IMG/VR virus record: IMGVR_UViG_2563366802_000006
DNA: 46,505 nt
Reading direction: 5' to 3' (one strand)
Source: a virus
Taxonomy: Duplodnaviria; Heunggongvirae; Uroviricota; Caudoviricetes
The translations under genes and the position numbers were made by a program. Shown here one piece after another: positions 1 to 27,543 of the stretch; position 1 is the first letter of the stretch; every line of letters starts with the position of its first letter. The notes under the pieces are model-generated. The model worked only from the letters and a program-made list of their open reading frames with translations, did not search any database and had not been told where the DNA came from.

Positions 1-1019
1 TTACGCCTTCTTTATATCCTCCATAATTCCAGAGTGGGACATATTTGGGACATTATCACCAAAAATGTCGTCTATTTTCCTCGCATGCTCTGTCAAATGA
101 TTAGGCGCAAGGTGAGCATACCTACGAACCATTTCTATGGACTCCCATCCGCCCATTTCCTGAAGCACTGATAATGGGACGCCTGACTGAATCAGCCAGC
201 TTGCCCAGGTGTGTCTGAGGTCATGGAAACGGAAATCTTCAATTCCTGCACGACGACAAGCTGATAGCCATGATGTCTTGCTGTCGATGCGCATCTTCCT
301 GACCGCAGGCGTTGATGTTCCATCTGCTCGCTTAGCCGCCTTGGTATGTACAAACACCCATTTGTGATGCTTGCCTATTTGATCACGCAACACTTTACAG
401 GCGGTATCGTTCAGCGCCACACCAATGGCGCGGTTTGATTTGCTCTCTTCTGGATTCACCCAGGCAACTCGTCGCTGCATGTCGATTTGTTGCCATTCCA
501 GATTTATGATGTTCGACTTTCTCAGACCAGTTGCCAGCGCAAACTTGACGACAGATTTCAGTGGTTCGGGGCACTCATCAATAAGGCGTTTTGCTTCCTC
601 CTTTTCCAGCCATCTGACTCGCTTGTTTCTGACCGCTGGTATCTTGATGACAGGCGCTTTTTCCAGCCACTTCCAGTCGCGTTCTGCAGCACGGAGAATG
701 GCCTTTATCATGGCAAGATGCTTTGCCTTTGTCTGAGTTGATACTGGCTTTGGTTCATAAACAGGCGGTTCTTTACCTTTCCTGATGGCGGCCTGAACTT
801 TCTGTTTCCATATTTCTTTCGTCTTTCTGTTATGCATTCTGCTTACAGCAGAGTAAATCTTTGCCTCCGAGATATCTTTAAGCCTTATACCCTCAAAATG
901 TTCAAGCCAGAACTCAATCCGGCTTTTATCTGAATCGAGAGATTTTTTATCAGCTTTTTCCTCAAGCCATCTTAGGCAGGCCTCTTCAAAAGTGACATCA
1001 GGTAAATCCCCTAGCTTTT

Positions 1020-3600
<2,581 letters not shown>

Positions 3601-3647
3601 TTTTACACCTCAGTTGGACGATGTTGAAATTTGCTGCTTTGAGGCCA

Positions 3648-3866
3648 TCACAGTCCCCATTGTTTGTTCTTAAGTTCGATCTCCTCCTGGCAACTTGCAC
3701 AAGTCCGACAACCCTGAACGACCAGGCGTCTTCGTTCATCTATTGGATCGCCACACTCACAACAATGAGTGGCAGATACAGTCTGGTAGTTCAGACGACG
3801 CATTTTTATTGCTGTGTTGCGCTGTAATTCTTCAATTTCTGATGCTGAATCAATGATGTCTGCCAT
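3648..3866 (-). CDS. TraR/DksA-family C4 zinc-finger protein
   Basis: 72-aa ORF with CxxC...17 aa...CxxC (CCECGDPIDERRRLVVQGCRTCASC), the pattern of phage TraR-like proteins. Confidence 0.7.
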   Translation of the reverse strand: MADIIDSASEIEELQRNTAIKMRRLNYQTVSATHCCECGDPIDERRRLVVQGCRTCASCQEEIELKNKQWGL

Positions 3867-3964
3867 CTTCCATTAATCCCTGAATTGTTGGTTAATACGC
3901 TTGAGGGTGAATGCGAATAATAAAAAAGGAGCCTGTAGCTCCCTGATGATTTTGCTTTTCATGT

Positions 3965-4180
3965 TCATCGTTCCTTAAAGACGCCGTTTAACATGCCGAT
4001 TGCCAGGCTTAAATGAGTCGGTGTGAATCCCATCAGCGTTACCGTTTCGCGGTGCTTCTTCAGTACGCTACGGCAAATGTCATCGACGTTTTTATCCGGA
4101 AACTGCTGTCTGGCTTTTTTGATTTCAGAATTAGCCTGACGGGCAATGCTGCGAAGGGCGTTTTCCTGCTGAGGTGTCAT
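3965..4180 (-). CDS. Small early-region protein (lambda orf61-like)
   Basis: Likely start at MTPQQENALRSIARQ... (ATG at 4180); position and size match the lambda exo-proximal small orfs. Confidence 0.55.
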   Translation of the reverse strand: MTPQQENALRSIARQANSEIKKARQQFPDKNVDDICRSVLKKHRETVTLMGFTPTHLSLAIGMLNGVFKER

Positions 4181-4256
4181 TGAACAAGTCCCATGTCGGC
4201 AAGCATAAGCACACAGAATATGAAGCCCGCTGCCAGAAAAATGCATTCCGTGGTTG

Positions 4257-4448
4257 TCATACCTGGTCTCTCTCATCTGCTTCTGCTTTCGCCACCATCA
4301 TTTCCAGCTTTTGTGAAAGGGATGCGGCTAACGTATGAAATTCTTCGTCTGTTTCTACTGGTATTGGCACAAACCTGACTCCAATTTGAGCGAGGCTATG
4401 TGCCATCTCGATACTCGTTCTTAACTCAACGGGAGATGCTTTGTGCAT
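4257..4448 (-). CDS. Small early-region protein (lambda orf63-like)
   Basis: 63-aa ORF immediately beyond orf60a; synteny with lambda. Confidence 0.55.
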   Translation of the reverse strand: MHKASPVELRTSIEMAHSLAQIGVRFVPIPVETDEEFHTLAASLSQKLEMMVAKAEADERDQV

Positions 4449-4609
4449 ACAGCTCCCCGTTTATTATTTATCTCCTCAGCCAGCCGCTGTGCTTTCAGTG
4501 GATTTCTGATAACAGAAAGGCCGGGAAATACCCAGCCTCGCTTTGTAATGGAGTAGACGAAAGTGATCGCGCCTACCCGGATATTATCGTGAGGATGCGT
4601 CATCGCCAT
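4421..4609 (-). CDS. Lambda orf60a-like protein
   Basis: 62-aa [36 protein letters not shown]... overlapping the exo start, as lambda orf60a does. Confidence 0.7.
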
Positions 4610-5280
4610 TGCTCCCCAAATACAAAACCAATTTCAGCCAGTGCCTCGTCCATTTTTTCGATGAACTCCGGCACCATCTCGTCAAAACTCGCCATGTACT
4701 TTTCATCCCGCTCAACCACGACATAATGCAGTCCTTCACGCTTCATACGCGGGTCATAGTTGGCAAAGTACCAGGCATCTTTTCGTGTCACCCACATGCT
4801 GTACTGCACCTGGGCCATGTAAGCCGACTTTATGGCCTCGAAACCACCGAGCCGGAACTTCATGAAATCCCGGGAGGTAAACGGGCATTTCAGCTCAAGG
4901 CCATTGCCGTCACTGCATAAACCATCGGGAGAGCAGGCGGTGCGCATACTTTCGTCGCGATAGATGATCGGGGATTCAGTAACATTCACGCCGGAAGTGA
5001 ATTCAAACAGAGTTCTGGCGTCGTTCTCGTACTGTTTTCCCCATGCCAGCGCCTTAGCATTAACTTCCGGAGCCACACCGGTGCAAACCTCAGCCAGCAG
5101 GGTGTGGAAGTAGGACATTTTCATGTCAGGCCACTTCTTTCCTGAGCGGGGCTTGGCTATCACGTTGTGAGCTTCTGAAGCGGTGATGACGCCGAGCCGT
5201 AATTTGTGCCATGCATCATCCCCCTGTTCGACAGCTCTTACGTCGATCCCGGTACGCTGCAGTATAATGTCCGGTGTCAT
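4600..5280 (-). CDS. exo: Lambda exonuclease (Red-alpha)
   Basis: 226-aa ORF near-identical to lambda Exo ([36 protein letters not shown]...). Confidence 0.97.
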
Positions 5281-6062
5281 GCTGCCACCTTCTGCTCAGT
5301 GGCTTTCTGTTTCAGGAATCCAAGAGCTTTCACTGCTTCGGCCTGTGTCAGTTCTGACGATGCGCGAATGTCGCGGCGAAATATCTGGGAACAGAGCGGC
5401 AATAAGTCGTCATCCCATGTTTTATCCAGGGCGATCAGCAGAGTGTTAATCTCCTGCATGGTTTCATCGTTAACCGGAGTGATGTCGCGTTCCGGCTGAC
5501 GTTCTGCAGTGTATGCAGTATTTTCGACAATGCGCTCGGCTTCATCCTTGTCATAGATACCAGCAAATCCGAAGGCCAGACGGGCACACTGAATCATGGC
5601 TTTATGCCGTAACATCCGTTTGGGATGCGACTGCCACGGTCCGGTGATTTCTCTGCCTTCGCGGGTTTTGAATGGTTCGCGGCGGCATTCATCCATCCAC
5701 TCGGTAACGCAGATCGGATGATTACGGTCCTTGCGGTAAATCCGGCATGTACATGATTCATTGTCCTGCTCAAAGTCCATGCCATCAAACTGCTGGTTTT
5801 CATTGATGATACGGGACCAGCCATCAACGCCCACCACCGGAACGATGCCGTTCTGCTTGTCAGGGAAGGCGTAAATTTCTTTCGTCCACGGATTAAGGCC
5901 GTACTGGTTGGCGACGATCAACAATGCGATGAACTGCGCATCGCTGGCATCACCTTTAAATGCCGTCTGGCGAAGAGTGGTGATCAGTTCCTGTGGGTCG
6001 ACAGAATCCATGCCGACGCGTTCAGCCAGCTTCCCAGCCAGCGTTGCGAGTGCTGTACTCAT
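5277..6062 (-). CDS. bet: Lambda Bet single-strand annealing protein (Red-beta)
   Basis: 261-aa ORF near-identical to lambda Bet; overlaps exo start. Confidence 0.97.
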
Positions 6063-6067
6063 CCGTT

Positions 6068-6484
6068 TTATACCTCTGAATCAATATCAACCTGGTGGTG
6101 AGCAATGGTTTCAACCATGTACCGGATGTGTTCTGCCATGCGCTCCTGAAACTCAACATCGTCATCAAACGCACGGGTAATGGCTTTTTTGCTGGCCCCG
6201 TGGCGTTGTAAATGATCGATGCAGAGTGATTCAAACAGGTGCTGGGGCAGACCTTTTTCCATGTCGTCTGCCAGTTCTGCCTCTTTCTCTTCACGGGCGA
6301 TCTGCTGGTAGTGACGCGTCCAGCTCTGAGCCTCAAGACGATCCTGAATGTAATAAGCGTTCATGGCTGAACTCCTGAAATAGCTGTGAAAATATCGCCC
6401 GCGAAATGCCGGGCTGATTAGGAAAACAGGAAAGGGGGTTAGTGAATGCTTTTGCTTGATCTCAGTTTCAGTATTAATATCCAT
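6068..6484 (-). CDS. gam: Lambda Gam, RecBCD inhibitor
   Basis: 138-aa ORF matching lambda Gam (long form). Confidence 0.95.
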
Positions 6485-6582
6485 TTTTTATAAGCGTCGA
6501 CGGCCTCACGAAACATCTTTTCATCGCCAATAAAAGTGGCGATAGTGAATTTAGTCTGGATAGCCATAAGTGTTTGATCCAT
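6439..6582 (-). CDS. kil: Kil host-killing protein
   Basis: 47-aa [47 protein letters not shown] matches lambda Kil; the ORF-track N-terminal extension to 6708 is not used. Confidence 0.85.
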
Positions 6583-6715
6583 TTTTTGGGACTCCTGGCT
6601 GATTAAGTATGTCGATAAGGCGTTTCCATCCGTCACGTAATTTACGGGTGATTCGTTCAAGTAAAGATTCGGAAGGGCAGCCAGCAACAGGCCACCCTGC
6701 AATGGCATATTGCAT
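6551..6715 (-). CDS. cIII: cIII protease inhibitor
   Basis: Found by hand on the minus strand (below the 60-aa ORF-track cutoff): [54 protein letters not shown], 54 aa, matches lambda cIII. Confidence 0.85.
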   Translation of the reverse strand: MQYAIAGWPVAGCPSESLLERITRKLRDGWKRLIDILNQPGVPKNGSNTYGYPD

Positions 6716-6787
6716 GGTGTGCTCCTTATTTATACATAACGAAAAACGCCTCGAGTGAAGCGTTATTGGTATGCGGTAACGCCGCGC

Positions 6788-7165
6788 TCAGGCGGCTTTG
6801 ATAGTCATATCATCTGAATCAAATATTCCTGATGTATCGATATCGGTAATTCTTATTCCTTCGCTACCATCCATTGGAGGCCATCCTTCCTGACCATTTC
6901 CATCATTCCAGTCGAACTCACACACAACACCATATGCATTTAAGTCGCTTGAAATTGCTATAAGCAGAGCATGTTGCGCCAGCATGATTAATACAGCATT
7001 TAATACAGAGCCGTGTTTATTGAGTCGGTATTCAGAGTCTGACCAGAAATTATTAATCTGGTGAAGTTTTTCCTCTGTCATTACGTCATGGTCGATTTCA
7101 ATTTCTATTGATGCTTTCCAGTCGTAATCAATGGTAAGCGTAAACTGACCGCCGTATGTAGCCAT
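6788..7165 (-). CDS. ea10: Ea10-like protein
   Basis: 125-aa ORF in the position lambda ea10 occupies (next leftward of cIII); similar size. Confidence 0.7.
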   Translation of the reverse strand: MATYGGQFTLTIDYDWKASIEIEIDHDVMTEEKLHQINNFWSDSEYRLNKHGSVLNAVLIMLAQHALLIAISSDLNAYGVVCEFDWNDGNGQEGWPPMDGSEGIRITDIDTSGIFDSDDMTIKAA

Positions 7166-7218
7166 CAGACGAGAATTGGTAACTTAGACGCCCATCTGAT
7201 ATAGACGGACATCTAAGT

Positions 7219-7644
7219 ATGGAATTACAGGACTGGCGAAAAGAACCTCGTAAAAACTATTCGAATGAATTCAAACTTCGTATGGTGGAACTGGCATCAC
7301 AACCTGGAGCTTGTGTTGCACAGATTGCACGTGAAAATGGCGTCAATGATAATGTTATTTTCAAATGGCTCAGGCTCTGGCAGAACGAAGGGCGTGTTTC
7401 GCGGCGTCTTCCGGTAACGACCTCTTCTGACACTGGCGTTGAATTATTACCTGTAGAAATAACGCCGGATGAGCAGAAAGAACCTGTGGCGGCCATTGCG
7501 CCGTCTTTATCCACTTCCACTCAGACCAGAGTCAGTGCCAGTTCCTGCAAGGTGGAATTCCGTCACGGTAACATGACGCTGGAAAATCCATCGCCAGAGC
7601 TGCTCACAGTGTTGATCCGTGAACTGACCGGGAGGGGAAGATGA
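7219..7644 (+). CDS. IS66-family accessory protein TnpA (orf1)
   Basis: 141-aa ORF with HTH-like N-terminus; stop overlaps the next ORF. Confidence 0.8.
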   Translation: MELQDWRKEPRKNYSNEFKLRMVELASQPGACVAQIARENGVNDNVIFKWLRLWQNEGRVSRRLPVTTSSDTGVELLPVEITPDEQKEPVAAIAPSLSTSTQTRVSASSCKVEFRHGNMTLENPSPELLTVLIRELTGRGR

Positions 7645-7991
7645 TCTCACTCCCATCAGGTACCCGTATCTGGCTCGTTGCCGGCGTTACCGATATGCGT
7701 AAATCCTTCAACGGACTGGGAGAACAGGTACAACATGTGCTGAATGATAATCCCTTCTCCGGTCACCTGTTTATCTTCCGTGGCCGACGGGGTGACACCG
7801 TCAAAATTCTTTGGGCTGATGCTGATGGTCTGTGCCTGTTCACCAAACGCCTGGAGGAAGGCCAGTTTATCTGGCCTGCGGTACGTGACGGCAAGGTATC
7901 CATTACCCGCTCGCAACTGGCAATGCTCCTCGATAAGCTGGACTGGCGTCAGCCAAAAACATCCAGCCTTAACGCACTGACAATGTTGTAA
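7641..7991 (+). CDS. IS66-family TnpB (orf2)
   Basis: 116-aa ORF MISLPSGTRIWLVAGVTDMRKSFNGL... typical of IS66 orf2. Confidence 0.85.
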   Translation: MISLPSGTRIWLVAGVTDMRKSFNGLGEQVQHVLNDNPFSGHLFIFRGRRGDTVKILWADADGLCLFTKRLEEGQFIWPAVRDGKVSITRSQLAMLLDKLDWRQPKTSSLNALTML

Positions 7992-8021
7992 AAAACTCCT
8001 GACCGCATTATAAAAACGGTC

Positions 8022-9635
8022 ATGAGTCAGAAATACCTCATTCGCATCGCAGAGCTGGAAAGGTTGCTCTCTGAGCAGGCTGAAGCCCTCCGTCAGAAAG
8101 ACCAGCAACTGAGTCTGGTTGAAGAGACGGAAGCCTTCCTGCGCTCTGCACTGACACGTGCCGAAGAAAAGATCGAAGAAGATGAACGGGAAATAGAACA
8201 TCTGCGGGCTCAGATAGAAAAACTGCGCCGGATGCTGTTCGGTACCCGTTCTGAAAAACTGCGTCGTGAAGTTGAACTGGCTGAGGCTCTGCTGAAACAA
8301 CGTGAACAGGACAGCGATCGTTACAGTGGGCGGGAAGACGATCCTCAGGTTCCCCGCCAGTTGCGACAGTCGCGCCATCGTCGTCCGTTACCGGCACACC
8401 TTCCCCGTGAAATACACCGCCTGGAGCCAGAAGAAAGCTGTTGCCCGGAGTGTGGCGGTGAGCTGGATTATCTGGGGGAAGTCAGCGCTGAACAGCTGGA
8501 ACTGGTGAGCAGTGCCCTGAAAGTGATCCGCACAGAACGGGTAAAAAAAGCCTGTACAAAATGTGACTGTATTGTTGAAGCACCGGCGCCGTCCCGCCCG
8601 ATAGAGCGTGGTATCGCGGGCCCCGGATTACTTGCCCGCGTGTTAACGGGAAAATACTGCGAACATCTGCCACTGTATCGTCAGAGTGAAATCTTTGCCC
8701 GCCAGGGTGTCGAACTGAGCCGGGCCTTACTCTCCAACTGGGTTGACGCGTGCTGCCAGTTAATGACACCGGTGAATGATGCCCTGTACCGTTATGTAAT
8801 GAACACCCGCAAGATTCACACTGATGACACACCGGTAAAGGTACTGGCACCGGGTCAGAAAAAGGCGAAAACAGGGCGTATCTGGACGTATGTCCGGGAT
8901 GATCGCAATGTGGGTTCGTCATCTCCTCCAGCGGTCTGGTTCGCGTACTCGCCGAACCGGCAGGGGAAACACCCGGAGCAACACCTCCGCCCCTTCCGGG
9001 GTATCCTGCAGGCGGATGCGTTCACAGGTTACGACAGGTTGTTCAGTGCAGAACGTGAAGGTGGTGCACTGACAGAAGTTGCGTGCTGGGCCCATGCCCG
9101 GCGAAAAATCCACGATGTATACATCAGCAGCAAAAGTGCGACGGCAGAAGAAGCACTGAAGCGAATCAGTGAACTGTACGCCATCGAGGATGAAATACGG
9201 GGATTACCGGAGTCAGAGCGTCTTGCCGTCAGGCAGCAGCGAAGCAAAGTGTTACTGACGTCGCTGCATGAATGGATGGTGGAGAAGAATGGTACGCTGT
9301 CGAAAAAATCCAGACTGGGCGAAGCGTTCAGCTATGTACTGAATCAGTGGGATGCCCTCTGTTATTACAGTGATGACGGTCTGGCGGAGGCGGATAATAA
9401 TGCTGCGGAAAGAGCGCTTCGTGCAGTCTGTCTCGGAAAGAAAAACTTTATGTTCTTTGGCAGCGATCACGGCGGCGAGCGTGGAGCACTGTTGTACGGG
9501 CTGATCGGCACCTGCCGTCTGAACGGTATCGATCCGGAAGCGTATCTGCGCCATATCCTGAGCGTACTGCCGGAATGGCCTTCCAACCGAGTTGATGAAC
9601 TCCTGCCATGGAACGTAGTACTCACCAATAAATAA
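8022..9635 (+). CDS. IS66-family transposase TnpC (orf3)
   Basis: 537-aa ORF with N-terminal coiled coil, zinc-finger CPECGGEL...CTKC and a DDE-type core. Confidence 0.88.
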   Translation: MSQKYLIRIAELERLLSEQAEALRQKDQQLSLVEETEAFLRSALTRAEEKIEEDEREIEHLRAQIEKLRRMLFGTRSEKLRREVELAEALLKQREQDSDRYSGREDDPQVPRQLRQSRHRRPLPAHLPREIHRLEPEESCCPECGGELDYLGEVSAEQLELVSSALKVIRTERVKKACTKCDCIVEAPAPSRPIERGIAGPGLLARVLTGKYCEHLPLYRQSEIFARQGVELSRALLSNWVDACCQLMTPVNDALYRYVMNTRKIHTDDTPVKVLAPGQKKAKTGRIWTYVRDDRNVGSSSPPAVWFAYSPNRQGKHPEQHLRPFRGILQADAFTGYDRLFSAEREGGALTEVACWAHARRKIHDVYISSKSATAEEALKRISELYAIEDEIRGLPESERLAVRQQRSKVLLTSLHEWMVEKNGTLSKKSRLGEAFSYVLNQWDALCYYSDDGLAEADNNAAERALRAVCLGKKNFMFFGSDHGGERGALLYGLIGTCRLNGIDPEAYLRHILSVLPEWPSNRVDELLPWNVVLTNK

Positions 9636-9714
9636 GCGTCAATACGGTGCTCCGTTGACGCTTACAATCAATGATGTATTTTTTGATGTTTGACATCTAT
9701 TCATATCCTCACAG

Positions 9715-9742
9715 ATAAAAAATCGCCCTCACATTGGAGGGC
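9715..9742 (-). terminator. Rho-independent terminator candidate on the leftward (pL) transcript
   Basis: Minus-strand hairpin GCCCTCCAATGTGAGGGC followed by TTTTTT. Confidence 0.45.
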
Positions 9743-9956
9743 AAAGAAGATTTCCAATAATCAGAACAAGTCGGCTCCTGTTTAGTTACGAGCGACATTG
9801 CTCAGTGTATTCACTCGTTGGAATGAATACACAGTGCAGTGTTTATTAGTATGCCTGTCTTTTAACCACATCAGGGTCGGTGGTTCTCGTGTACCCCTAC
9901 AGCGAGAAATCGGATAAACTCTATTCACCCCTACAGAGAGCAAAAGAGAAACGCCG

Positions 9957-10538
9957 ATGAACAACTCATGGTGGCAGGAACTAATGCATTTTTTCCTGCA
10001 AGGAATGACACTTAAACAGTTGATTCATATGCTAATCATCCTAATCATATTGATTATTGTTATGCCTATAAGCGTAAAAGAATGGATAAACCTGCATAAT
10101 CCAGAAATCCTTCCTCATTACTGGATGTATTACATCCTGTTGTTTTGCGTTAGCTATGTGCTTAACGGCGTTGTTAATTCCGCTTATCACGCTGTGACTG
10201 AAAGAATTGAGATATTCGCTGCTCAGAAGCGCAAATCTAAAGAAGAGAAATACGTGCAAGATTTGTTTGATTCGTTAACTCTTGGAGAAAGAGCGTATTT
10301 GGCATTCGCTGTAGCCGCTAATAACCAGCTAAAGACAGAAAAGGGAAGCCCTGAAGCAATCTCATTGCTCGAAAAAGGGCTTCTTATTCGGGTACCTTCT
10401 GCTACTGGATATCCTGAAATCGACCGTTTTGTTATCCCGGAACGCTATAGAAATGAGTGCTACATTAGGTTTGCTGGGAAGAAAGACAGTCTTATGGATG
10501 AACTTATCGCTCAGGATAAGCATGGCAAAAACAAGTAA
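9957..10538 (+). CDS. sieB: Superinfection exclusion protein SieB
   Basis: 193-aa ORF with N-terminal transmembrane stretch; matches lambda SieB as I recall it; opposite orientation to N, as in lambda. Confidence 0.8.
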   Translation: MNNSWWQELMHFFLQGMTLKQLIHMLIILIILIIVMPISVKEWINLHNPEILPHYWMYYILLFCVSYVLNGVVNSAYHAVTERIEIFAAQKRKSKEEKYVQDLFDSLTLGERAYLAFAVAANNQLKTEKGSPEAISLLEKGLLIRVPSATGYPEIDRFVIPERYRNECYIRFAGKKDSLMDELIAQDKHGKNK

Positions 10539-10554
10539 TTAGCAAATTAATTTA

Positions 10555-10827
10555 TCATCTCGCCGTCAGTTGTTTTGATTTCCGGTAGCCTGCCGCGTAA
10601 ATGGCTACGTTTGGCAGGCAAATACTTCCACTGCATTCATCTGCCTTCTTGCAGCGAAGGCTTCCGAGTGATGCTGCTTTGTCTGCTCTGACGCAACCAG
10701 AGAGCTTTAGCGCAATTTTTCGCGCCAGTCGCTGTTCTTGCATTGCCTGCTCACGTTGAGCCTGTCTGCGTGCTCTGCGGCGATTTCTGGCGTTATCGTC
10801 AGCCAGATATGTAATGACTACTGCCAT
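10555..10827 (-). CDS. N: N-type transcription antiterminator (P22 gp24 family)
   Basis: 90-aa ORF with arginine-rich N-terminus (NARNRRRARRQAQREQ) and C-terminus ...AAGYRKSKQLTAR resembling P22 gp24; sits between nutL and sieB. Confidence 0.8.
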   Translation of the reverse strand: MAVVITYLADDNARNRRRARRQAQREQAMQEQRLARKIALKLSGCVRADKAASLGSLRCKKADECSGSICLPNVAIYAAGYRKSKQLTAR

Positions 10828-10935
10828 GTTGACCTCCGATGATTGACTTTGGCGGTGACGCGCCGGGTGCTTATCTTCCGGTTGCCGTCGTGCAGCTGCA
10901 CTTCACGTCACCCCAAAGCCAACTACTCTTTGGTT

Positions 10936-10975
10936 CCCGCATTTCGGCGGGACAATCCCATCAATGTTAAAGAGC
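10936..10975 (-). promoter_or_regulatory. nutL (boxA GCTCTTTAAC + boxB hairpin CCCGCCGAAATGCGGG)
   Basis: Minus-strand boxA-like decamer followed about 14 nt later by a stem-loop; the same pair recurs as nutR on the + strand. Confidence 0.65.
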
Positions 10976-11021
10976 CTGCCAATCTGTTCCGTTTGGCTAC
11001 CAGCGTCCTGCCGATGACTTA

Positions 11022-11100
11022 AATTTAAGATTTCTTTAACTATTGGTCAAGAGCGTTTTTGAAGAAAACTTAAATTTTGTTGCGAAGCTTAAGTTTTGCT
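11022..11100 (-). promoter_or_regulatory. pL/oL region: -35 TTGACC, 17-nt spacer, -10 TAAATT (minus strand), with operator-like repeats built on TTAAG/CTTAA half-sites
   Basis: Promoter hexamers read from the sequence; operator repeats (ATTTAAGATTTCTTTAAC, CTTAAATTTTG, CTTAAGTTTTG) resemble P22-type operators. Confidence 0.55.
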
Positions 11101-11116
11101 TTGATTTTTAAAGGAA

Positions 11117-11139
11117 AGAAAAAAAGGGGCGAATGCCCC
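11117..11139 (-). terminator. Rho-independent terminator directly after the repressor gene
   Basis: Minus-strand hairpin GGGGCATTCGCCCC followed by TTTTTTT, abutting the c2 stop. Confidence 0.6.
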
Positions 11140-11790
11140 TTATGGAAGGTTTGCTATTTTTGCATCGACAACTACACCGATGATTTTGCAGTTCCCGTTG
11201 ATCTCAATCATCGGATATTGTGGGTTAAGTGGTTTTAGAAACCTTCTGCCAGCATCAATAACTAACTTCTTGAAAGTTGCCTCGTTTTCTCCTTCGAGCT
11301 TTGCCACTACCAGCTTCCCATTACGAGGTTCTACTTCAGGATCGACTAGTATTATCATCCCTTCCGGGATGCTAAGACCGGCTGGAGCCGTCATCGAATC
11401 ACCCTTTACGTCCAGCCAAAACGAATCTTCTGAACAATCTACGGTTGTATCGTACCAGTTATCTATTGCACGCTTATGATATGGCTCTACAGCTTCCATC
11501 CAACATCCTGCGCTTACCCAACTAATTAGAGGATACGAACCTCTTGGATCATGCCTGCTGTGATAGGCAATGTTTGAAAGACTATCTTCTCCTTTCAACA
11601 AGTAATCAGGGGAGCACTGTAAAGCCTTGGCTAAAGCCAATAGGTTTTCGCCATTGGGCTCAGTTTCAGAACGCTCCCATTGGGAAATAGCAACATTAGA
11701 CACGCCAACCATCTTGCCAAGGGCAGCCTGCCTAATCTTAAGTTCTTTTCTGCGAGCGCGAATACGCTCACCCATCAGTTGTGTATTCAT
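11140..11790 (-). CDS. c2: Prophage repressor, P22 C2 type (HTH + LexA-like S24 domain)
   Basis: 216-aa ORF near-identical to P22 C2 (MNTQLMGERIRARRK.LKIRQAALGKMVGVSNVAISQWERSETEPNGENLLAL...). Confidence 0.95.
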   Translation of the reverse strand: MNTQLMGERIRARRKELKIRQAALGKMVGVSNVAISQWERSETEPNGENLLALAKALQCSPDYLLKGEDSLSNIAYHSRHDPRGSYPLISWVSAGCWMEAVEPYHKRAIDNWYDTTVDCSEDSFWLDVKGDSMTAPAGLSIPEGMIILVDPEVEPRNGKLVVAKLEGENEATFKKLVIDAGRRFLKPLNPQYPMIEINGNCKIIGVVVDAKIANLP

Positions 11791-11860
11791 AGTTAAGACA
11801 TCTTAAATAAACTTGACTTAAGATTCCTTTGATAGATAATTTAAGTGTTCTTTAATTTCG
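11791..11860. promoter_or_regulatory. oR/pR/pRM region: operators AGTTAAGACATCTTAAAT and AATTTAAGTGTTCTTTAAT; pR -35 TTGACT and -10 GATAAT (+ strand)
   Basis: Near-palindromic 18-19-bp sites with TTAAG...CTTAA half-sites between divergent c2 and cro; sigma-70-like hexamers overlap them. Confidence 0.65.
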
Positions 11861-11870
11861 GGGCGAGTCT

Positions 11871-12056
11871 ATGTACAAGAAAGATGTTATCGACCACTTC
11901 GGAACCCAGCGTGCGGTAGCTAAAGCGTTAGGCATTAGCGATGCAGCAGTCTCTCAGTGGAAGGAAGTCATCCCAGAGAAAGACGCCTATCGACTGGAAG
12001 TCGTTACAGCTGGCGCCCTGAAGTATCAAGAAAGTGCTTATCGCAAAGCGGCATAA
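11871..12056 (+). CDS. cro: Cro repressor (P22 type)
   Basis: 61-aa ORF MYKKDVIDHFGTQRAVAKALGISDAAVSQWKEVIPEKDAYRLE... matches P22 Cro. Confidence 0.93.
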   Translation: MYKKDVIDHFGTQRAVAKALGISDAAVSQWKEVIPEKDAYRLEVVTAGALKYQESAYRKAA

Positions 12057-12062
12057 GCAAAT

Positions 12063-12106
12063 TGCTCTTTAACAGTCATGGTCCTTATTCCCGCCGAAAT
12101 GCGGGA
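12063..12106 (+). promoter_or_regulatory. nutR (boxA GCTCTTTAAC + boxB CCCGCCGAAATGCGGG)
   Basis: Same boxA and boxB as nutL, here on the + strand just after cro. Confidence 0.65.
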
Positions 12107-12164
12107 ATACAACGCGCATCAGTTGGTGCGTATAACTTCTTATTTGTTAAGGAAATACTTACAT

Positions 12165-12443
12165 ATGCAACTTACAAGTACTCGCAAGAAAGCGAATGCA
12201 ATCACAAGCAACATCCTGAATCGAATTGCTGTACGTGGTCAGCGAAAGGTTGCTGATGCATTAGGGATTAATGAATCGCAAATTTCGCGATGGAAAGACA
12301 GCTTTATCCCAAAGATGGCCATGCTTCTGGCTGTGCTGGAGTGGGGTGTTGAAGACGAGGAATTAGCAAAGCTAGCAAAGAAAGTAGCCATGGTGCTGAC
12401 AAAAGAAAAGCCTCAAGACTGCTGCAACAGTTTTGAGGCCTGA
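12165..12443 (+). CDS. cII: CII-family lysogeny-establishment activator (P22 c1-like)
   Basis: Start chosen at ATG 12165 (MQLTSTRKK...) after an AGGAAA ribosome-binding site; conserved core SQISRWK...IPK.AMLLAVLEWGV as in lambda CII. The ORF-track extension from 12078 spans nutR and is not used. Confidence 0.85.
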   Translation: MQLTSTRKKANAITSNILNRIAVRGQRKVADALGINESQISRWKDSFIPKMAMLLAVLEWGVEDEELAKLAKKVAMVLTKEKPQDCCNSFEA

Positions 12444-12477
12444 TGTAGAAAGACTGGATCAATCCACAGGAGTCATT

Positions 12478-13377
12478 ATGACAAATACAGCAAAAATACT
12501 CAACTTCGGCAGAGGTAACTTTACCGGACAGGAGCGTAATGTGGCAGATCTCGATGATGGTTACGCCAGACTATCAAATATGCTGCTTGAGGCTTATTCA
12601 GGCGCAGATCTGACCAAGCGACAGTTTAAAGTGCTGCTTGCCATTCTGCGTAAAACCTATGGGTGGAATAAACCAATGGACAGAATCACCGATTCTCAAC
12701 TTAGCGAGATTACAAAGTTACCTGTCAAACGGTGCAATGAAGCCAAGTTAGAACTCGTCAGAATGAATATTATCAAGCAGCAAGGCGGCATGTTTGGACC
12801 AAATAAAAACATCTCAGAATGGTGTATCCCTCAAAACGAGGGAAAATCCCCTAAAACGAGGGATAAAACATCCCTCAAATTGGGGGATTGCTATCCCTCA
12901 AAACAGGGGGACACAAAAGACACTATTACAAAAGAAAAAAGAAAAGATTATTCGTCCGAGAATTCTGGCGAATCCTCTGACCAGCCAGAAAACGATCTTT
13001 CTGTGGTTAAACCGGATGCTGCAATTCAGAGCGGCAGTAAGTGGGGAACAGCAGAAGACCTGACCGCCGCAGAGTGGATGTTTGACATGGTGAAGACCAT
13101 CGCGCCATCAGCCAGAAAACCGAATTTTGCTGGGTGGGCTAACGATATCCGCCTGATGCGTGAACGTGACGGACGTAACCACCGCGATATGTGTGTGCTT
13201 TTCCGCTGGGCCTGCCAGGACAACTTCTGGTCCGGTAACGTGCTGAGTCCGGCCAAACTCCGCGACAAGTGGACCCAGCTCGAAATCAACCGTAACAAGC
13301 AACAGGCTGGCGTGACAGCCGGAAAACCAAAACTCGACCTGACAAACACTGACTGGATTTACGGGGTGGATCTATGA
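12478..13377 (+). CDS. O: Lambda O replication initiator
   Basis: Start at ATG 12478 (MTNTAKILNFGRGNF...); near-identical to lambda O. Confidence 0.95.
   Translation: MTNTAKILNFGRGNFTGQERNVADLDDGYARLSNMLLEAYSGADLTKRQFKVLLAILRKTYGWNKPMDRITDSQLSEITKLPVKRCNEAKLELVRMNIIKQQGGMFGPNKNISEWCIPQNEGKSPKTRDKTSLKLGDCYPSKQGDTKDTITKEKRKDYSSENSGESSDQPENDLSVVKPDAAIQSGSKWGTAEDLTAAEWMFDMVKTIAPSARKPNFAGWANDIRLMRERDGRNHRDMCVLFRWACQDNFWSGNVLSPAKLRDKWTQLEINRNKQQAGVTAGKPKLDLTNTDWIYGVDL
12826..12960. repeat. ori-lambda: four iterons (ATCCCTCAAAACGAGGGA-like) followed by an AT-rich stretch, inside O
   Basis: Four direct repeats (ATCCCTCAAAACGAGGGA, ATCCCCTAAAACGAGGGA, ATCCCTCAAATTGGGGGA, ATCCCTCAAAACAGGGGG) then ACAAAAGACACTATTACAAAAGAAAAAAGAAAAG. 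Confidence 0.9.
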
Positions 13378-15917: not shown

Positions 15918-16104
15918 CCCATCTCAATCCCTTCAATACCTGAAAGGAAGCATAGAGCGGGCTTCAATGTGCACAGAGTGGATTCTATCTAGGTTTAGCG
16001 CATACAGAAGATTGCCGGTAAAGGGCATGCCAAGCAAGTCGATGCTGCATATGCAAAAGAATGCGCGCTGGAAGGTATGGCGAGAACACAGGTTATCTGG
16101 CTGA
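15910..16104 (+). CDS. NinF-like small protein with divergent C-terminal half
   Basis: N-terminus [10 protein letters not shown] resembles lambda NinF, but the remainder lacks the cysteine-rich NinF motif; not explained by a simple frameshift. Confidence 0.45.
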
Positions 16105-16123
16105 AAGAGGGGGTTATTAAGGC

Positions 16124-16486
16124 GTGAATACCTACAGCATCACATTACCCTGGCCTCCGAGCAATAATCGCTATTACCGCCATAATCGCGGGCGCACGCA
16201 CGTCAGCGCAGAGGGGCAGGCATACCGCGATAACGTCGCCCGAATCATTAAAAACGCAATGCTGGATATCGGCCTGGCTATGCCTGTGAAAATCCGCATT
16301 GAGTGCCACATGCCGGATCGCCGTCGCCGTGACCTGGATAATCTGCAAAAAGCCGCTTTTGACGCACTCACTAAAGCAGGTTTCTGGCTGGATGATGCTC
16401 AGGTCGTTGATTACCGCGTTGTGAAGATGCCTGTTACCAAAGGTGGGAGGCTGGAACTGACCATCACCGAAATGGGGAATGAATGA
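16124..16486 (+). CDS. rusA: RusA Holliday-junction resolvase
   Basis: 120-aa ORF matching DLP12 RusA ([23 protein letters not shown]...). Confidence 0.95.
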
Positions 16487-16623
16487 TGTTTGAGTTTAAT
16501 ATGGCAGAACTTCTTCGCCACCGCTGGGGGCGTCTGCGCTTATATCGTTTCCCCGGCTCTGTTTTGACCGATTACCGAATACTGAAGAATTACGCCAAAA
16601 CACTGACAGGAGCAGGAGTATGA
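16483..16623 (+). CDS. ylcG: YlcG-like small protein
   Basis: 46-aa ORF found by hand ([46 protein letters not shown]), overlapping the rusA stop; DLP12 synteny. Confidence 0.75.
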
Positions 16624-16708
16624 AGTCAGAGATAACAATCAACTAATACTGTTTTGTTGATTTTTGCTTGTAATTGGCGTTCTGGTCTGAGTTTTGTGGA
16701 GTAAGTTG

Positions 16709-17092
16709 ATGCGTGATATTCAGATGGTTCTTGAGCGTTGGGGAGCGTGGGCGGCTAATAATCATGAAGATGTGACCTGGTCGTCCATTGCCGCCGGTTT
16801 TAAGGGATTAATTCCTTCAAAAGTAAAATCTCGCCCGCAATGTTGTGACGATGACGCGATGATCATTTGCGGGTGCATGGCCCGTCTGAAAAAGAACAAC
16901 AGCGATTTGCACGATTTATTAGTAGATTATTATGTAGTCGGTATGACATTCATGTCACTGGCAGGTAAGCATTGCTGCTCTGATGGTTATATCGGGAAAA
17001 GGTTACAAAAGGCTGAGGGCATAATTGAAGGGATGTTAATGGCATTAGATATCCGGTTAGAGATGGATATCGTTGTTAATAACTCTAATTAA
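16709..17092 (+). CDS. quuD: Late-gene antiterminator Q (phage 21/82-type, QuuD-like)
   Basis: Start at ATG 16709 ([22 protein letters not shown]...); matches DLP12 QuuD as I recall it. Confidence 0.9.
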
Positions 17093-17281: not shown

Positions 17282-18364
17282 TTAGAACTGGTAAACCAGA
17301 CCTACAGCAACGATGTCATCAGTATCAATACCAGCTGTTTTGGTAAACTTACTATCGTCAATTAAGTTGATTTTGTAATCAACAAAAGTGGACATGTTTT
17401 TATTAAAGTAGTAAGTAGCACCGACATCGACATACTTGACTAAGTCTCGGTCACCATGAACACCAAGGTCTTTACCTTTTGACTGAAGGTAAGCAACAGA
17501 TGGGCGCAGACCGAAGTCAAACTGATATTGTGCTACTGCTTCAAAGTTTTGTGCTTTGTTTGCAATATGGTTATTACCAAAAACGGTCATATTCTGAGTT
17601 TCAGAATATGTGGTAGCCAGATAGATATTGTTCGCATCATATTTCAGGCCTGCAGCCCATACTTCCGCATTTTTGCCGGAGGCATTGAATTTGCTCTTAC
17701 CATAGGCGACCTGACCGTCAGTGCGATCTGATTTAGCATAGGTTGCACCCACGCCGAATCCTTCATACTCATAAGTAGTGGAGAAACCGAAACCATCACC
17801 ATTGGCTTCAGTTACGTCAGTGCGGTCATTTTTACCCTGATACTGAGCAGCAAAGTTCAGGCCATCGACCAGACCAAAGAAGTCGTTGTTACGATAAGTT
17901 GCAACACCAGTAGTGCGACCAGTCATGAACACATCTGTTTGGGTCCAGGTATCACCACCGAATTCTGGCAGGACGTCAGTCCACGCACCGATGTCGTATG
18001 CTACACCGTAGTTACGGCCGTAATCGATTGAGCCGTAATCACCAAATTTCAGGCCTGCAAATGCAAGACGGGTTTTGTCTTTGGAAGAACCTTGAGATTC
18101 AGCGCGGTTGCCTTTGAATTCATATTCCCACTGACCGAAACCAGTCAGTTGATCGTTGATTTGGGTTTCACCTTTGAAGCCAAGACGGGCATAAGTAGTA
18201 TCACCATCATCTGCATCATTAGAGGAGAAGTAGTGCTTAGCATTAACTTTCCCGTACAGATCCAGCTTGTTACTGTCTTTATTATAAATTTCAGCTGCCT
18301 GAGCAGACATCGCCATCAGTACTGATGCAGCTACAGCAGAAATTGCCACTGTTAATTTTTTCAT
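17282..18364 (-). CDS. nmpC: Outer-membrane porin, OmpC/OmpF/PhoE family (NmpC-like), apparently intact
   Basis: 360-aa ORF with signal peptide [23 protein letters not shown] and C-terminal ...VAVGLVYQF; located between Q and the holin as in DLP12. Confidence 0.93.
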
Positions 18365-18792
18365 CGTGAGCCCTTTTTTTTGAACTATTATTAAAAAATG
18401 ATGTCACTGCGCGATAAATATTCATCTAATCAATGTGATTATTTCAAGATGTAAGTTTTGGTTTCTCGTTTAATTTGTGAAGTAGATCTCTATTTTTATC
18501 TGAACTTTTTTCTATCGAATCCTATTCATGGCTCTTGGCTGAATAAAAATAAATCTATTAGCCAATTTATATTAATGGCTGTTATTTATAAGTGCTCTAT
18601 AATTTGAAGGTTCAATTTAAATTGGCTAAAAATAACGCTGGAAATTATTTGTTGGTTATTTGTTGAGATTTGCTTATGTATTTGTAGTGGTGTTTTCAAT
18701 ACTCGGTAGCATTCTCGCAAATATCATTTAGTGGTTTACGTACGTAAAAAATTGGTTATGCTGTTAAGAGTGGTTACTTCGTCACACAGCTT

Positions 18793-18826
18793 AAACCCGC
18801 CGTCGAGCGGGTTTTTCCATTTTTTG
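18793..18826 (+). terminator. Rho-independent terminator candidate about 110 bp upstream of the holin gene
   Basis: Hairpin AAACCCGCCGTCGAGCGGGTTT followed by TTCCATTTTTT on the + strand. Confidence 0.5.
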
Positions 18827-18937
18827 AGTCTCGATATTAGCTGATAACCCAATACCTGAGTTATTCACTGACTCCGAGTCTGTTACGTTTCGTAGTATTC
18901 CCTCAATTTACACCCGCTTTGTCTGCGAGGTGGGGTT

Positions 18938-19153
18938 ATGCAATCCATGGATAAGTTAACAACGGGTGTCGCCTATGGCACCTCAGCAGGTAGTGCCGGG
19001 TACTGGTTTTTACAGCTGCTAGATAAAGTCACGCCCTCACAGTGGGCGGCAATTGGAGTGCTGGGTAGCCTGGTATTTGGCCTGCTGACGTACCTGACAA
19101 ACCTTTATTTCAAGATTAAAGAAGACAAGCGTAAGGCTGCACGGGGAGAGTAA
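18938..19153 (+). CDS. essD: Pinholin (phage 21 S21 family) with dual-start motif
   Basis: 71-aa [74 protein letters not shown]; Met1 and Met4 give the antiholin/holin pair. Confidence 0.92.
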
Positions 19154-19157
19154 TTCA

Positions 19158-19746: not shown

Positions 19747-19845
19747 TCCTCTCTATTGTATTTAACTATTCCTTGCCTGATTCAACAGGCCGGGACAGAT
19801 AAACATATCCAGGGTTCAGAAACCGATAAATCCTGATAAATATCC

Positions 19846-27523: not shown

Positions 27524-27543
<20 letters not shown>

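What the first reader, a model, noticed from the sequence alone, without database searches (positions are those of the whole stretch)
7179..9956. IS66-family element inserted in the pL operon where ral would lie
The lambda-like leftward operon runs N, (ral), ea10, cIII, kil, gam, bet, exo, but between sieB and ea10 there is a roughly 2.5-kb IS66-type element and no recognisable ral. The insertion is co-directional with nothing in the operon (its genes are on the + strand) and may be polar on cIII, kil and the red genes, although N antitermination could read through.
Basis: partly seen in the sequence, partly recalled or inferred. Interest (0 to 1): 0.42.

Follow-up and report, generated by a model that had tools for sequence, protein, structure and literature searches.

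The report
ISEc23 insertion inside prophage gene ea10
A common, already named E. coli jumping gene (ISEc23) has landed inside the non-essential gene ea10 of a decaying lambda-like prophage; it did not displace the ral gene, which this prophage lineage never had, so the finding is ordinary.

Summary
An IS66-family element is really there, but the coordinates and the ral reading are wrong. It is a complete copy of ISEc23. It spans 7134-9665 (2532 bp), not 7179-9956. It has imperfect terminal inverted repeats starting GTAAGCG, a perfect 8-bp target duplication AATCAATG (7126-7133 and 9666-9673), and intact tnpA, tnpB and tnpC on the + strand. It matches many E. coli copies at 99.9% identity end to end.

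It lies inside ea10, at codons 8-11, not between sieB and ea10. Removing the IS and one duplication copy restores the 122-aa Ea10. The 125-aa ORF at 6788-7165 is a chimera whose first 11 codons come from the IS left end.

The absence of ral has nothing to do with the IS. An almost identical prophage (99.96-99.99%) at the same tRNA-Arg site in E. coli strain 3359 has no IS in ea10, and there ea10 sits next to sieB with no ral. The same ral-less arrangement occurs in free phages such as Lambda_2E9. Ral-containing relatives differ by a clean 336-bp module about 180 bp to the right of the IS.

The prophage also has IS100 in xis and a frameshifted head-protease gene. The insertion is best read as one more step in prophage decay. 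Interest is low.

The parts
7134..9665 (+). Complete ISEc23 (IS66 family), 2532 bp
   Evidence: 99.9% identity over query positions 1-2532 to copies annotated 'IS66-like element ISEc23 family transposase' in unrelated chromosomal and plasmid contexts; 2489 genomes hold a place covering >=80% of the query. G+C is 0.52-0.565 inside the element and 0.40-0.44 in the flanks. It is the only copy in the window.
7134..7157 (+). Left terminal inverted repeat (IRL), begins GTAAGCGT
   Evidence: Inverted-repeat pair I1. The first 24 bases of the two ends match at 20 of 24 positions.
9642..9665 (+). Right terminal inverted repeat (IRR), ends ACGCTTAC; contains TTGACG at 9655-9660
   Evidence: The promoter scan reports a -35-like TTGACG that could pair with TATTTT at 9677-9682 in the flank, but the number of promoter-like hits is no higher than in shuffled sequence.
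7126..7133 (.). Target-site duplication, left copy, AATCAATG
   Evidence: IS-free relatives carry a single copy.
9666..9673 (.). Target-site duplication, right copy, AATCAATG
   Evidence: It corresponds to lambda 33874-33881, inside lambda ea10 (33536-33904).
7219..7644 (+). tnpA, IS66 accessory protein, 141 aa
   Evidence: Pfam HTH_Tnp_1 E=5e-12. NCBIfam IS66 TnpA models E=2e-25 and 2e-23. Identical to WP_000422741.1.
7641..7991 (+). tnpB, IS66 Orf2-type accessory protein, 116 aa; its start overlaps the tnpA stop as ATGA
   Evidence: Pfam TnpB_IS66 E=1e-36. NCBIfam IS66_TnpB E=1.6e-35. ATGA overlap read directly from the sequence.
8022..9635 (+). tnpC, IS66-family DDE transposase, 537 aa, intact
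   Evidence: Pfam DDE_Tnp_IS66 E=5e-98, plus zf-IS66, LZ_Tnp_IS66 and the IS66 C-terminal element. NCBIfam transpos_IS66 E=1.6e-135. One amino-acid difference from WP_000080195.1.
6788..7165 (-). Chimeric ORF: 11 codons from the IS left end (MATYGGQFTLT) fused in frame to Ea10 residues 9-122; no Shine-Dalgarno sequence upstream
   Evidence: ORF list. Pfam DUF2528 covers the whole profile (1-104 of 104), E=1.5e-47. Junction read from the sequence. This exact protein is on record in 34 index blocks; the 24 blocks read gave 23 contigs that carry it.
9622..9696 (-). Severed 5' end of ea10: native start and Shine-Dalgarno, 10 native codons, then 14 IS-encoded codons and a stop (MSNIKKYIIDCKRQRSTVLTLIYW)
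   Evidence: Joining 6788-7133 to 9674-9696 gives the 122-aa Ea10, MSNIKKYIIDYDWK....
9713..9800 (-). Homologue of lambda terminator tL2a and the LPR1 sRNA region; intact, with its U-tail ending about 47 bp upstream (in the pL sense) of the IS
   Evidence: Terminator-like hairpin at 9744-9723 followed by a T-run. Window 9666-9847 differs from lambda 33874-34055 at only 3 positions. The RNA fold is -28.9 kcal/mol, z = -3.4. LPR1 and tL2a are placed between ea10 and ral in bioRxiv 10.1101/2024.10.31.621285. The 5' limit is approximate, taken from the paper's ~88-nt size.
9957..10538 (+). sieB (superinfection exclusion), same strand as the IS genes
   Evidence: Pfam SieB E=4.7e-25.
10555..10827 (-). 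N antiterminator
   Evidence: Pfam N_peptide E=2e-15.
10935..10976 (-). nutL-like site: boxA-like GCTCTTTAACA and a boxB-like hairpin UCCCGC-CGAAAU-GCGGGA, lying between a pL-like promoter (11050-11022) and N
   Evidence: Sequence read, unique match, hairpin in the predicted fold, promoter-like hit. The assignment rests on position and resemblance only.
6551..6715 (-). cIII, first intact gene downstream of the insertion, with its thermoregulator RNA at 6670-6728
   Evidence: ORF. Pfam Lambda_CIII on the same gene in L125. Rfam Lambda_thermo 88.5 bits, E=2.6e-21.

Best explanation
This is an ordinary simple insertion of the known element ISEc23 (IS66 family) into the 5' end of ea10. ea10 is a non-essential gene of the N-dependent leftward operon of a lambda-like prophage that sits at the tRNA-Arg/fimZ site.

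Shown: the element is complete, with both inverted repeats and intact tnpA, tnpB and tnpC. It is flanked by a perfect 8-bp duplication, which is the footprint of IS66-family transposition. It splits ea10 into two pieces. One is a 24-codon stub that keeps the native ribosome-binding site. The other is an in-frame chimera that starts at an ATG in the IS left end and has no Shine-Dalgarno sequence.

Also shown: ral was absent before the insertion. The insertion happened after IS100 had disrupted xis and after a 1-bp frameshift in the head-protease gene, because a sister prophage shares both of those lesions but has ea10 intact.

Inferred: in the lysogen pL is repressed, so the insertion is silent. 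After induction, polymerase modified by N at the nutL-like site reads through sieB antisense and tL2a into the IS in antisense. No convincing intrinsic terminator is predicted on that strand. The roughly 2.5 kb of untranslated, C-rich RNA would normally invite Rho termination, but N-modified complexes resist it. So cIII, kil, gam, bet and exo are probably still expressed, perhaps at a lower level, while Ea10 is largely lost. The event is probably neutral and is one step in IS-driven decay of a prophage that can no longer excise.
For: Identity and ends of the IS.

Gene content.

Target inside ea10, with restoration of the 122-aa Ea10.

Empty site at 99.7-100% identity, contiguous: phages, complete E. 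coli genomes, at least 120 IMG/VR contigs.

Sister prophage in strain 3359: 99.96-99.99% identical and collinear over the whole window, ea10 intact, no ral, with the same IS100 in xis and the same gpC frameshift.

Same junction elsewhere: 34 index blocks list the chimeric protein, and 23 contigs were read, including GCA_000408605.1, which is 100% identical to window 788-13165, and ENA metagenome contigs.

Terminators: only one weak terminator-like hit on the minus strand inside the IS, with no T-run.

Composition: + strand GC skew of +0.18 to +0.22 over 9000-9600 makes the antisense RNA C-rich there.

Antitermination parts: N and a nutL-like site are present.

Literature: N releases polarity (Adhya et al. 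1974, as cited in PMC2147009). In lambda every pL gene other than N scored non-essential even under polar CRISPRi roadblocks (PMC10695390). IS66 makes 8-bp duplications (PMC6778807).
Against: No expression data exist, so the degree of polarity is inferred and not measured. The nutL assignment rests on resemblance and position; the fold of that stretch is not better than shuffled sequence (z = -0.4). The chimeric ea10 ORF keeps the whole DUF2528 domain, so some Ea10 function could survive. The allele occurs in many assemblies, which could mean clonal inheritance, as assumed here, or selection.
Confidence: 0.9

Rival explanations
1. One reading: the IS occupies the intergenic slot where ral normally lies and has replaced or removed ral.
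For: Lambda has ral between ea10 and sieB, and the window has none.
Against: The IS has a perfect 8-bp duplication inside ea10, and its removal restores ea10 with nothing missing. IS-free relatives at 99.7-100% identity have the same 260-bp ea10-sieB gap without ral. The ral module's position is about 180 bp to the right of the IS, and the ral-less allele is a clean replacement of the ~340-bp module by about 4 bp, shared with Lambda_2E9.
Confidence: 0.02
2. The insertion is strongly polar. It cuts off cIII, kil, gam, bet, exo and everything further down the pL operon, so it acts as a knock-out of the whole distal operon. That might be selected because it spares the host from Kil and Gam toxicity when a prophage that cannot excise is derepressed.
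For: About 2.5 kb of untranslated antisense RNA with a C-rich stretch is a good Rho substrate. The allele is found in many assemblies. The prophage cannot excise or build heads, so silencing its toxic early genes could benefit the host.
Against: N and a nutL-like site lie upstream, and N-modified polymerase overrides both Rho-dependent and intrinsic terminators, including IS-induced polarity (Adhya et al. 1974, cited; established knowledge). No convincing intrinsic terminator is predicted on that strand of the IS. The sister prophage decayed at other sites, which suggests random hits rather than selection on this operon.
Confidence: 0.15
3. The insertion is adaptive through new expression signals. 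One route is a hybrid promoter (-35 TTGACG in the right inverted repeat, -10 TATTTT in the flank), or read-through from tnpC, that raises sieB expression in the lysogen. Another is that the ATG in the IS left end yields a working chimeric Ea10.
For: The promoter-like site at 9655-9682 points toward sieB, 275 bp away. No + strand terminator is predicted between tnpC and sieB. The chimera keeps the full DUF2528 domain.
Against: Promoter-like hits are no more frequent than in shuffled sequence (6 found, 5.7 expected). The chimera has no Shine-Dalgarno sequence (read). Two other IS66-family insertions in the same region of related prophages lie at different sites, with no sign of convergence on a sieB-proximal position.
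Confidence: 0.05
4. An assembly artefact: a repeat was placed wrongly in the contig.
For: IS copies are a classic source of misassembly. Two assemblies that carry the junction (L126, L127) break inside the IS at the same point, and one has a run of N there.
Against: Both junctions carry a matching 8-bp duplication. The same left junction occurs in independent genome and metagenome assemblies, and the full insertion occurs in a 2.88-Mb scaffold.
Confidence: 0.01

Closest known systems
ISEc23 (IS66 family; the name used by ISfinder and NCBI PGAP)
   Same: Same length (2532 bp), same ends and same three genes. Identity is 99.9% over the whole element. The name appears in 25 held papers, mostly on E. 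coli and plasmid genomics.
   Different: Nothing structural. This copy differs by a few bases: 4 nt from the copy in L001 and 5 nt from the copy inside the strain 3359 prophage. Only the insertion site is particular.
IS66 / IS679 / ISEc8 (founding and characterised members of the IS66 family)
   Same: Three-gene layout tnpA-tnpB-tnpC, a DDE transposase TnpC, inverted repeats that begin GTAAGCG, and an 8-bp target duplication (PMC6778807; Han et al. 2001 from my own knowledge).
   Different: They are different elements at the sequence level. A roughly 96%-identical relative of ISEc23 sits between ral and sieB in strains 2013C-3342 and 2015C-4498.
Other ISEc23 insertions in lambda-like phages and prophages
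   Same: ISEc23 lies in the tail-fibre region of phages Lambda_4C10, 4A7, 1W and 3W, with a 97.3%-identical copy in D2. It lies upstream of N in strain Z1323PEC0008, and between the porin and holin genes of the sister prophage in strain 3359.
   Different: The target sites differ. None of the 5,426 complete E. coli genomes or the 50,697 phage records searched has the ea10 insertion.
Classical polar IS insertions in lambda and in operons read from pL, relieved by N
   Same: An IS placed in an N-antiterminated transcription unit. N-modified polymerase is expected to read through (Adhya, Gottesman and de Crombrugghe 1974, cited).
   Different: Those cases were tested by experiment. Here read-through is only inferred.
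DLP12, the defective lambdoid prophage at argU in E. coli K-12
   Same: Same chromosomal site: the PGAP annotation of the sister prophage shows tRNA-Arg next to fimZ, with intD, quuD, essD and nohD gene names. Both show decay by IS insertion. The DLP12 comparison itself is from my own knowledge.
   Different: The window is a nearly full-length prophage with a few lesions, whereas DLP12 is a short remnant.

Membership tests
IS66 family insertion sequence | Three consecutive genes tnpA, tnpB and tnpC on one strand, with the tnpB start overlapping the tnpA stop | tested here: met
   ORFs at 7219-7644, 7641-7991 and 8022-9635, all on +. ATGA overlap confirmed. Family assignments from Pfam and NCBIfam.
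IS66 family insertion sequence | TnpC is an IS66-type DDE transposase | tested here: met
   PF03050 E=5e-98 over profile positions 1-283 of 284, with PF13005, PF13007 and PF13817. NF033517 at 452 bits against a cut-off of 180.
IS66 family insertion sequence | Imperfect terminal inverted repeats beginning 5'-GTAAGCG | tested here: met
   The ends are GTAAGCGTAAACTGACCGCCGTAT and the reverse complement of ATACGGTGCTCCGTTGACGCTTAC, matching at 20 of 24 positions. That this motif is typical of the family comes from my own knowledge of ISfinder.
IS66 family insertion sequence | 8-bp target-site duplication | tested here: met
   AATCAATG on both sides. IS-free relatives carry a single copy. The 8-bp figure for IS66 is reported in PMC6778807.
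ISEc23 (the specific element) | Near-identity over the full length to the reference element | tested here: met
   99.9% over 2532 of 2532 bases to copies that PGAP names ISEc23. The ISfinder reference sequence itself was not available to me.
ISEc23 (the specific element) | Ability to transpose | not testable with these tools
   All ORFs and both ends are intact and the duplication is perfect, which fits a recent event by an active element. Activity was not measured.
Lambda-type pL (N-dependent early leftward) operon | Gene order N, ea10, cIII, kil, gam, bet, exo on one strand, downstream of a repressor gene, with sieB on the opposite strand | tested here: met
   Pfam hits and the precomputed families on L125, which is 100% identical to the window. 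Lambda layout for comparison.
Lambda-type pL (N-dependent early leftward) operon | A nutL site (boxA and boxB) between pL and N | tested here: inconclusive
   A boxA-like GCTCTTTAACA and a 6-bp hairpin with a 6-nt loop lie at 10935-10976. The assignment is by resemblance only, and the fold is not better than shuffled sequence.
Lambda-type pL (N-dependent early leftward) operon | ral between ea10 and sieB (present in lambda, not universal) | tested here: not met
   No Ral-like sequence in the window. The gene is a variable module: in IMG/VR contigs with this sieB type, 13 have it and 5 lack it.
Ea10 / DUF2528 | A full-length DUF2528 protein with its native start | tested here: not met
   The domain is intact (PF10800, profile 1-104 of 104). 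The native start and first 8 codons are separated from it by 2.5 kb.

The most novel reading that the evidence does not exclude
The insertion is not neutral and has been kept for its effect on expression. The -35-like hexamer in the ISEc23 right end, or read-through from tnpC, would raise sieB expression in the lysogen. Alternatively, the ATG in the IS left end would give a working chimeric Ea10. Either way a locked-in prophage would be co-opted for superinfection exclusion. This would also raise the question of whether IS66-family elements preferentially land in the N-to-ea10 stretch of lambdoid prophages, where three independent insertions, all in the same orientation, were seen.
Probability: 0.04. 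Interest if true: 0.3.

Novelty: already known. Interest (0 to 1): 0.07.

Why it matters
It matters little for biology. A known IS has disrupted a non-essential gene of unknown function in a prophage that is already defective.

It has three modest practical uses.

First, the 125-aa 'DUF2528 family protein' at 6788-7165 is an IS-phage chimera. The same sequence is on record in public collections as if it were a normal protein.

Second, together with the IS100 insertion in xis and the gpC frameshift, the insertion gives an ordered series of markers for tracing the decay of the argU lambdoid prophage in this E. coli lineage.

Third, it shows that ral is a presence/absence module in lambda-like phages. 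Its absence should not be blamed on a nearby IS.

Tried and rejected
1. Ral remnants. tblastn of Ral and sensitive blastn of the lambda ral/orf28 module against the whole window gave only chance-level hits. Alignment with a ral-containing relative shows a clean module difference and no remnant.

2. The exact insertion in complete genomes and phages. Neither junction is in the 5,426 complete E. coli genomes or the 50,697 phage records. The left junction was also scanned in IMG/VR and in GTDB species representatives, with no match. It was found only through an exact look-up of the chimeric protein.

3. Truncated derivatives. I first read L126 and L127 as truncated derivatives that would show IS-mediated deletion. 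I rejected this. L126 has a run of N at the break, and both assemblies break at the same point inside the IS, which is what scaffolded short-read assemblies do.

4. Terminators and promoters. The scan for intrinsic terminators on the pL strand inside the IS and for outward promoters found nothing above the shuffled expectation.

5. Rfam. The scan of 6000-11600 found only the known cIII thermoregulator.

6. Literature. Han et al. 2001 (PMC95320) is not held, so the family features are cited from PMC6778807 and from my own knowledge.

7. Shared orientation. The same orientation of three IS66-family insertions in the N-to-ea10 region has a chance probability of about 1 in 4, so I did not treat it as a signal.
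Full report
**What is in the sequence**

Three ORFs lie head to tail on the + strand between 7219 and 9635.
- 7219-7644 (141 aa) matches the HTH transposase domain and the IS66 TnpA models.
- 7641-7991 (116 aa) matches TnpB_IS66, with E=1e-36 in Pfam and E=1.6e-35 in NCBIfam.
- 8022-9635 (537 aa) matches the IS66 DDE transposase at E=5e-98, together with the zinc-finger, leucine-zipper and C-terminal IS66 modules.

The tnpB start overlaps the tnpA stop as ATGA. G+C rises from 0.40-0.44 in the flanks to 0.52-0.565 inside the element. The observation of an IS66-type element is therefore real.

**Exact ends**

The repeat search found one long-range inverted pair, 7131-7157 against 9642-9668. Read base by base, the element starts GTAAGCGTAAACTG at 7134 and ends CGTTGACGCTTAC at 9665. 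The first 24 bases of the two ends match at 20 positions. The eight bases on either side are the same, AATCAATG, at 7126-7133 and 9666-9673.

A megablast of 7134-9665 against complete E. coli genomes gave 99.9% matches. They begin and end exactly at query positions 1 and 2532, in unrelated chromosomal and plasmid contexts such as trbC and pcoS, and PGAP annotates them as 'IS66-like element ISEc23 family transposase'. In all, 2489 genomes hold a place covering at least 80% of the query. The element is therefore a complete ISEc23 of 2532 bp. ISEc23 is a named element that appears in 25 held papers. An 8-bp duplication is the reported footprint of IS66 (PMC6778807).

**What it hit**

The 125-aa ORF at 6788-7165 on the minus strand matches DUF2528, the Ea10 family, over the whole profile. 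Its first 11 codons (MATYGGQFTLT) lie inside the IS left end. Joining 6788-7133 to 9674-9696 gives a 122-aa ORF, MSNIKKYIIDYDWKASIEIE..., which is Ea10 with its native start.

The duplicated octamer covers codons 8-11, so the IS is inside ea10 and not between ea10 and sieB. The severed 5' piece keeps the native ribosome-binding site. It reads ten native codons, then 14 IS-encoded codons and a stop. The 3' piece is an in-frame chimera with no Shine-Dalgarno sequence upstream of its ATG (sequence).

Window 9666-9847 differs from lambda 33874-34055 at only three positions. This places the target at lambda 33874-33881, inside lambda ea10 at 33536-33904.

**The ral question**

The reconstructed empty site is 1261 nt: window 6500-7133 joined to 9674-10300.
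- It matches in one contiguous piece at 99.7% in phages Lambda_2E9, 4B5, 1H12 and others, and at 99.2% in VT1-Sakai. There Ea10 is annotated directly next to SieB.
- It matches at 99.8-100% in complete E. coli genomes. A total of 529 genomes cover at least 80% of the query, and the 25 best listed all match in one contiguous piece of 1261 nt.
- Other relatives (ev207, ev017, PhiR63_2, 2G7b) match in two pieces and carry an annotated Ral between them.

Among IMG/VR contigs that hold the unoccupied ea10 target and this type of sieB, 13 have Ral with a 596-bp gap between the ea10 and sieB starts. Five lack Ral and have a 260-bp gap, exactly the window's gap once the IS is removed. An alignment of the window, Lambda_2E9 and a ral-containing prophage shows identical flanks. 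The ~340-bp ral module of the latter is replaced by about four bases in the ral-less form, at the equivalent of window ~9848. That point is about 180 bp to the right of the IS, beyond the tL2a terminator. No Ral-like sequence exists anywhere in the window.

**The closest comparator**

E. coli strain 3359 (NZ_CP103739.1) has a prophage beside tRNA-Arg and fimZ. It is collinear with the whole window at 99.96-99.99% identity.
- It shares the IS100 insertion described below and a 1-bp frameshift in the head-protease gene.
- Its ea10 is intact (369 nt) and is followed directly by sieB, with no ral.
- The alignment breaks at window 7133 and 9666 with an 8-bp overlap, which is the single copy of the target.
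- It has its own ISEc23 between the porin and holin genes and an IS1B in the porin gene. The window lacks both.

It also orders the events. IS100 in xis and the frameshift came first. The two lineages then picked up ISEc23 independently at different sites.

**How widespread the allele is**

Neither junction occurs in the 5,426 complete E. coli genomes or in the phage collection. The left junction, which was also scanned in IMG/VR and in GTDB species representatives, is absent from both.

An exact look-up of the chimeric 125-aa protein found it in 34 index blocks. The 24 blocks read gave 23 contigs that carry it. One is a 2.88-Mb scaffold of GCA_000408605.1 that is 100% identical to window 788-13165. 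Several others are ENA metagenome contigs that contain the left junction. The insertion is therefore real and is inherited in a circulating lineage.

Two scaffolded assemblies (L126, L127) break inside the IS at the same base. One has a run of N there, so I treat those breaks as assembly limits and not as deletions.

**Likely consequences (inferred)**

The leftward unit reads as follows:
- a pL-like promoter at 11050-11022;
- a nutL-like boxA and boxB at 10976-10935;
- N at 10827-10555;
- sieB in antisense;
- the tL2a terminator hairpin at 9744-9723, with the conserved region that in lambda gives the Hfq-bound sRNA LPR1;
- the ea10 start at 9696;
- ISEc23 in antisense;
- the rest of ea10;
- the cIII thermoregulator and cIII (Rfam hit of 88.5 bits);
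- kil, gam, bet and exo.

The LPR1 region is intact, and its U-tail ends about 47 bp before the IS. Inside the IS, the pL strand has only one weak terminator-like hairpin, with no T-run. The antisense RNA is untranslated and C-rich over 9000-9600, so unmodified polymerase would probably be stopped by Rho. Unmodified polymerase would normally already stop at the terminators upstream. N-modified polymerase overrides both kinds of terminator, and it was shown classically to relieve polarity (Adhya et al. 1974, cited in PMC2147009).

I therefore expect loss of normal Ea10 and at most a partial reduction of the distal genes. In lambda, every pL gene other than N scores as non-essential even under polar CRISPRi roadblocks (PMC10695390). 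None of this was measured here.

**Context**

A second IS, IS100 (IS21 family), lies at 1303-3256 (1954 bp) with a 5-bp duplication GTAGG. It is 100% identical to copies that PGAP names IS100. It interrupts an excisionase-like gene just upstream of int, and removing it restores the ORF. The homologue of the lambda head protease gene C carries a 1-bp deletion near 27858. The prophage can probably neither excise nor build heads, and the ea10 insertion is best seen as one more neutral hit.

ISEc23 is also found in the tail-fibre region of sequenced lambda-like phages. It lies upstream of N in another prophage, and a 96%-identical relative lies between ral and sieB in two further strains. Insertions of this family in this kind of phage are therefore not unusual. 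The shared orientation of the three pL-region insertions would occur by chance about one time in four.

**Rivals**

- That the IS displaced ral is refuted, as shown above.
- Strong polarity, possibly selected to silence toxic early genes of a locked-in prophage, cannot be excluded without transcript data. It runs against what is known of N.
- A promoter-like pair, TTGACG in the right inverted repeat and TATTTT in the flank (9655-9682), points toward sieB. Such hits are no more frequent than in shuffled sequence.
- Misassembly is excluded by the matching duplication and by the independent assemblies.

**Verdict**

This is a known IS at a trivial target in a decaying prophage. Novelty: already known. 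Interest: about 0.07.

Noticed in passing
window 1303-3256 (duplications at 1298-1302 and 3257-3261): A second IS in the same leftward operon. It is IS100 (IS21 family; istA 1389-2411, istB 2408-3190), 1954 bp, with a 5-bp duplication GTAGG. It lies inside an excisionase-like gene just upstream of int (1-1164, minus strand). Removing it restores [40 protein letters not shown]... The prophage is probably unable to excise. The same insertion is present in E. coli strain 3359.
   Followed up: yes
window ~27858 (gene spanning 27524-28842, + strand): A 1-bp deletion in a C-run (CCC to CC) frameshifts the homologue of the lambda head protease/scaffold gene C, which is 439 aa in Lambda_2E9. Strain 3359 shares the deletion, and PGAP flags the gene there as frameshifted.
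   Followed up: yes
window 9713-9800, minus strand: The region matching lambda tL2a and the recently described Hfq-dependent sRNA LPR1 is conserved here even though ral is absent. It differs from lambda at 3 positions over the 182 aligned bases of window 9666-9847. In this ral-less lineage, LPR1 would lie directly downstream (in the pL sense) of the antisense sieB region.
   Followed up: partly
L133 (NZ_CP103739.1) locus 15947-16713 and 17817-20348, against window 17649-18751: The sister prophage in strain 3359 has IS1B inside the porin gene and its own ISEc23 between the porin and holin genes. The window has neither, and its 360-aa porin ORF (17282-18364, minus strand) is intact. The two lineages are accumulating different IS hits in the same prophage.
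   Followed up: partly
L001 5471-8002 and L002 4125-6635: Two further independent IS66-family insertions lie in the N-to-ea10 stretch of related prophages. One is ISEc23 upstream of N, with duplication GTTGCATC. The other is a 96%-identical relative between ral and sieB, with duplication CCTTAAAT. Both have the same orientation as in the window. Three of three in one orientation is not significant.
   Followed up: partly
phage records LR595861, LR595864/NC_049946, OM475428, OM475430, OM475427: Sequenced lambda-like phage genomes of about 49 kb carry a full ISEc23 next to the tail-fibre genes (the copy in OM475427, phage D2, is 97.3% identical). If these records come from packaged particles, as I assume but did not check, this IS can travel inside them.
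   Followed up: no
window 1 and L133 737-813: The window starts exactly at the 3' end of int. In strain 3359 the same int lies 15 bp from a tRNA-Arg gene next to fimZ, which is the DLP12 attachment site of E. coli K-12. The window therefore looks like a nearly full-length relative of the DLP12 remnant (the DLP12 comparison is from my own knowledge).
   Followed up: partly
window 9795-9842: A 22-bp imperfect inverted repeat (82% complementary, 4-nt loop) lies between tL2a and the point where the ral module is present or absent. It is conserved in lambda. I did not examine its role.
   Followed up: no
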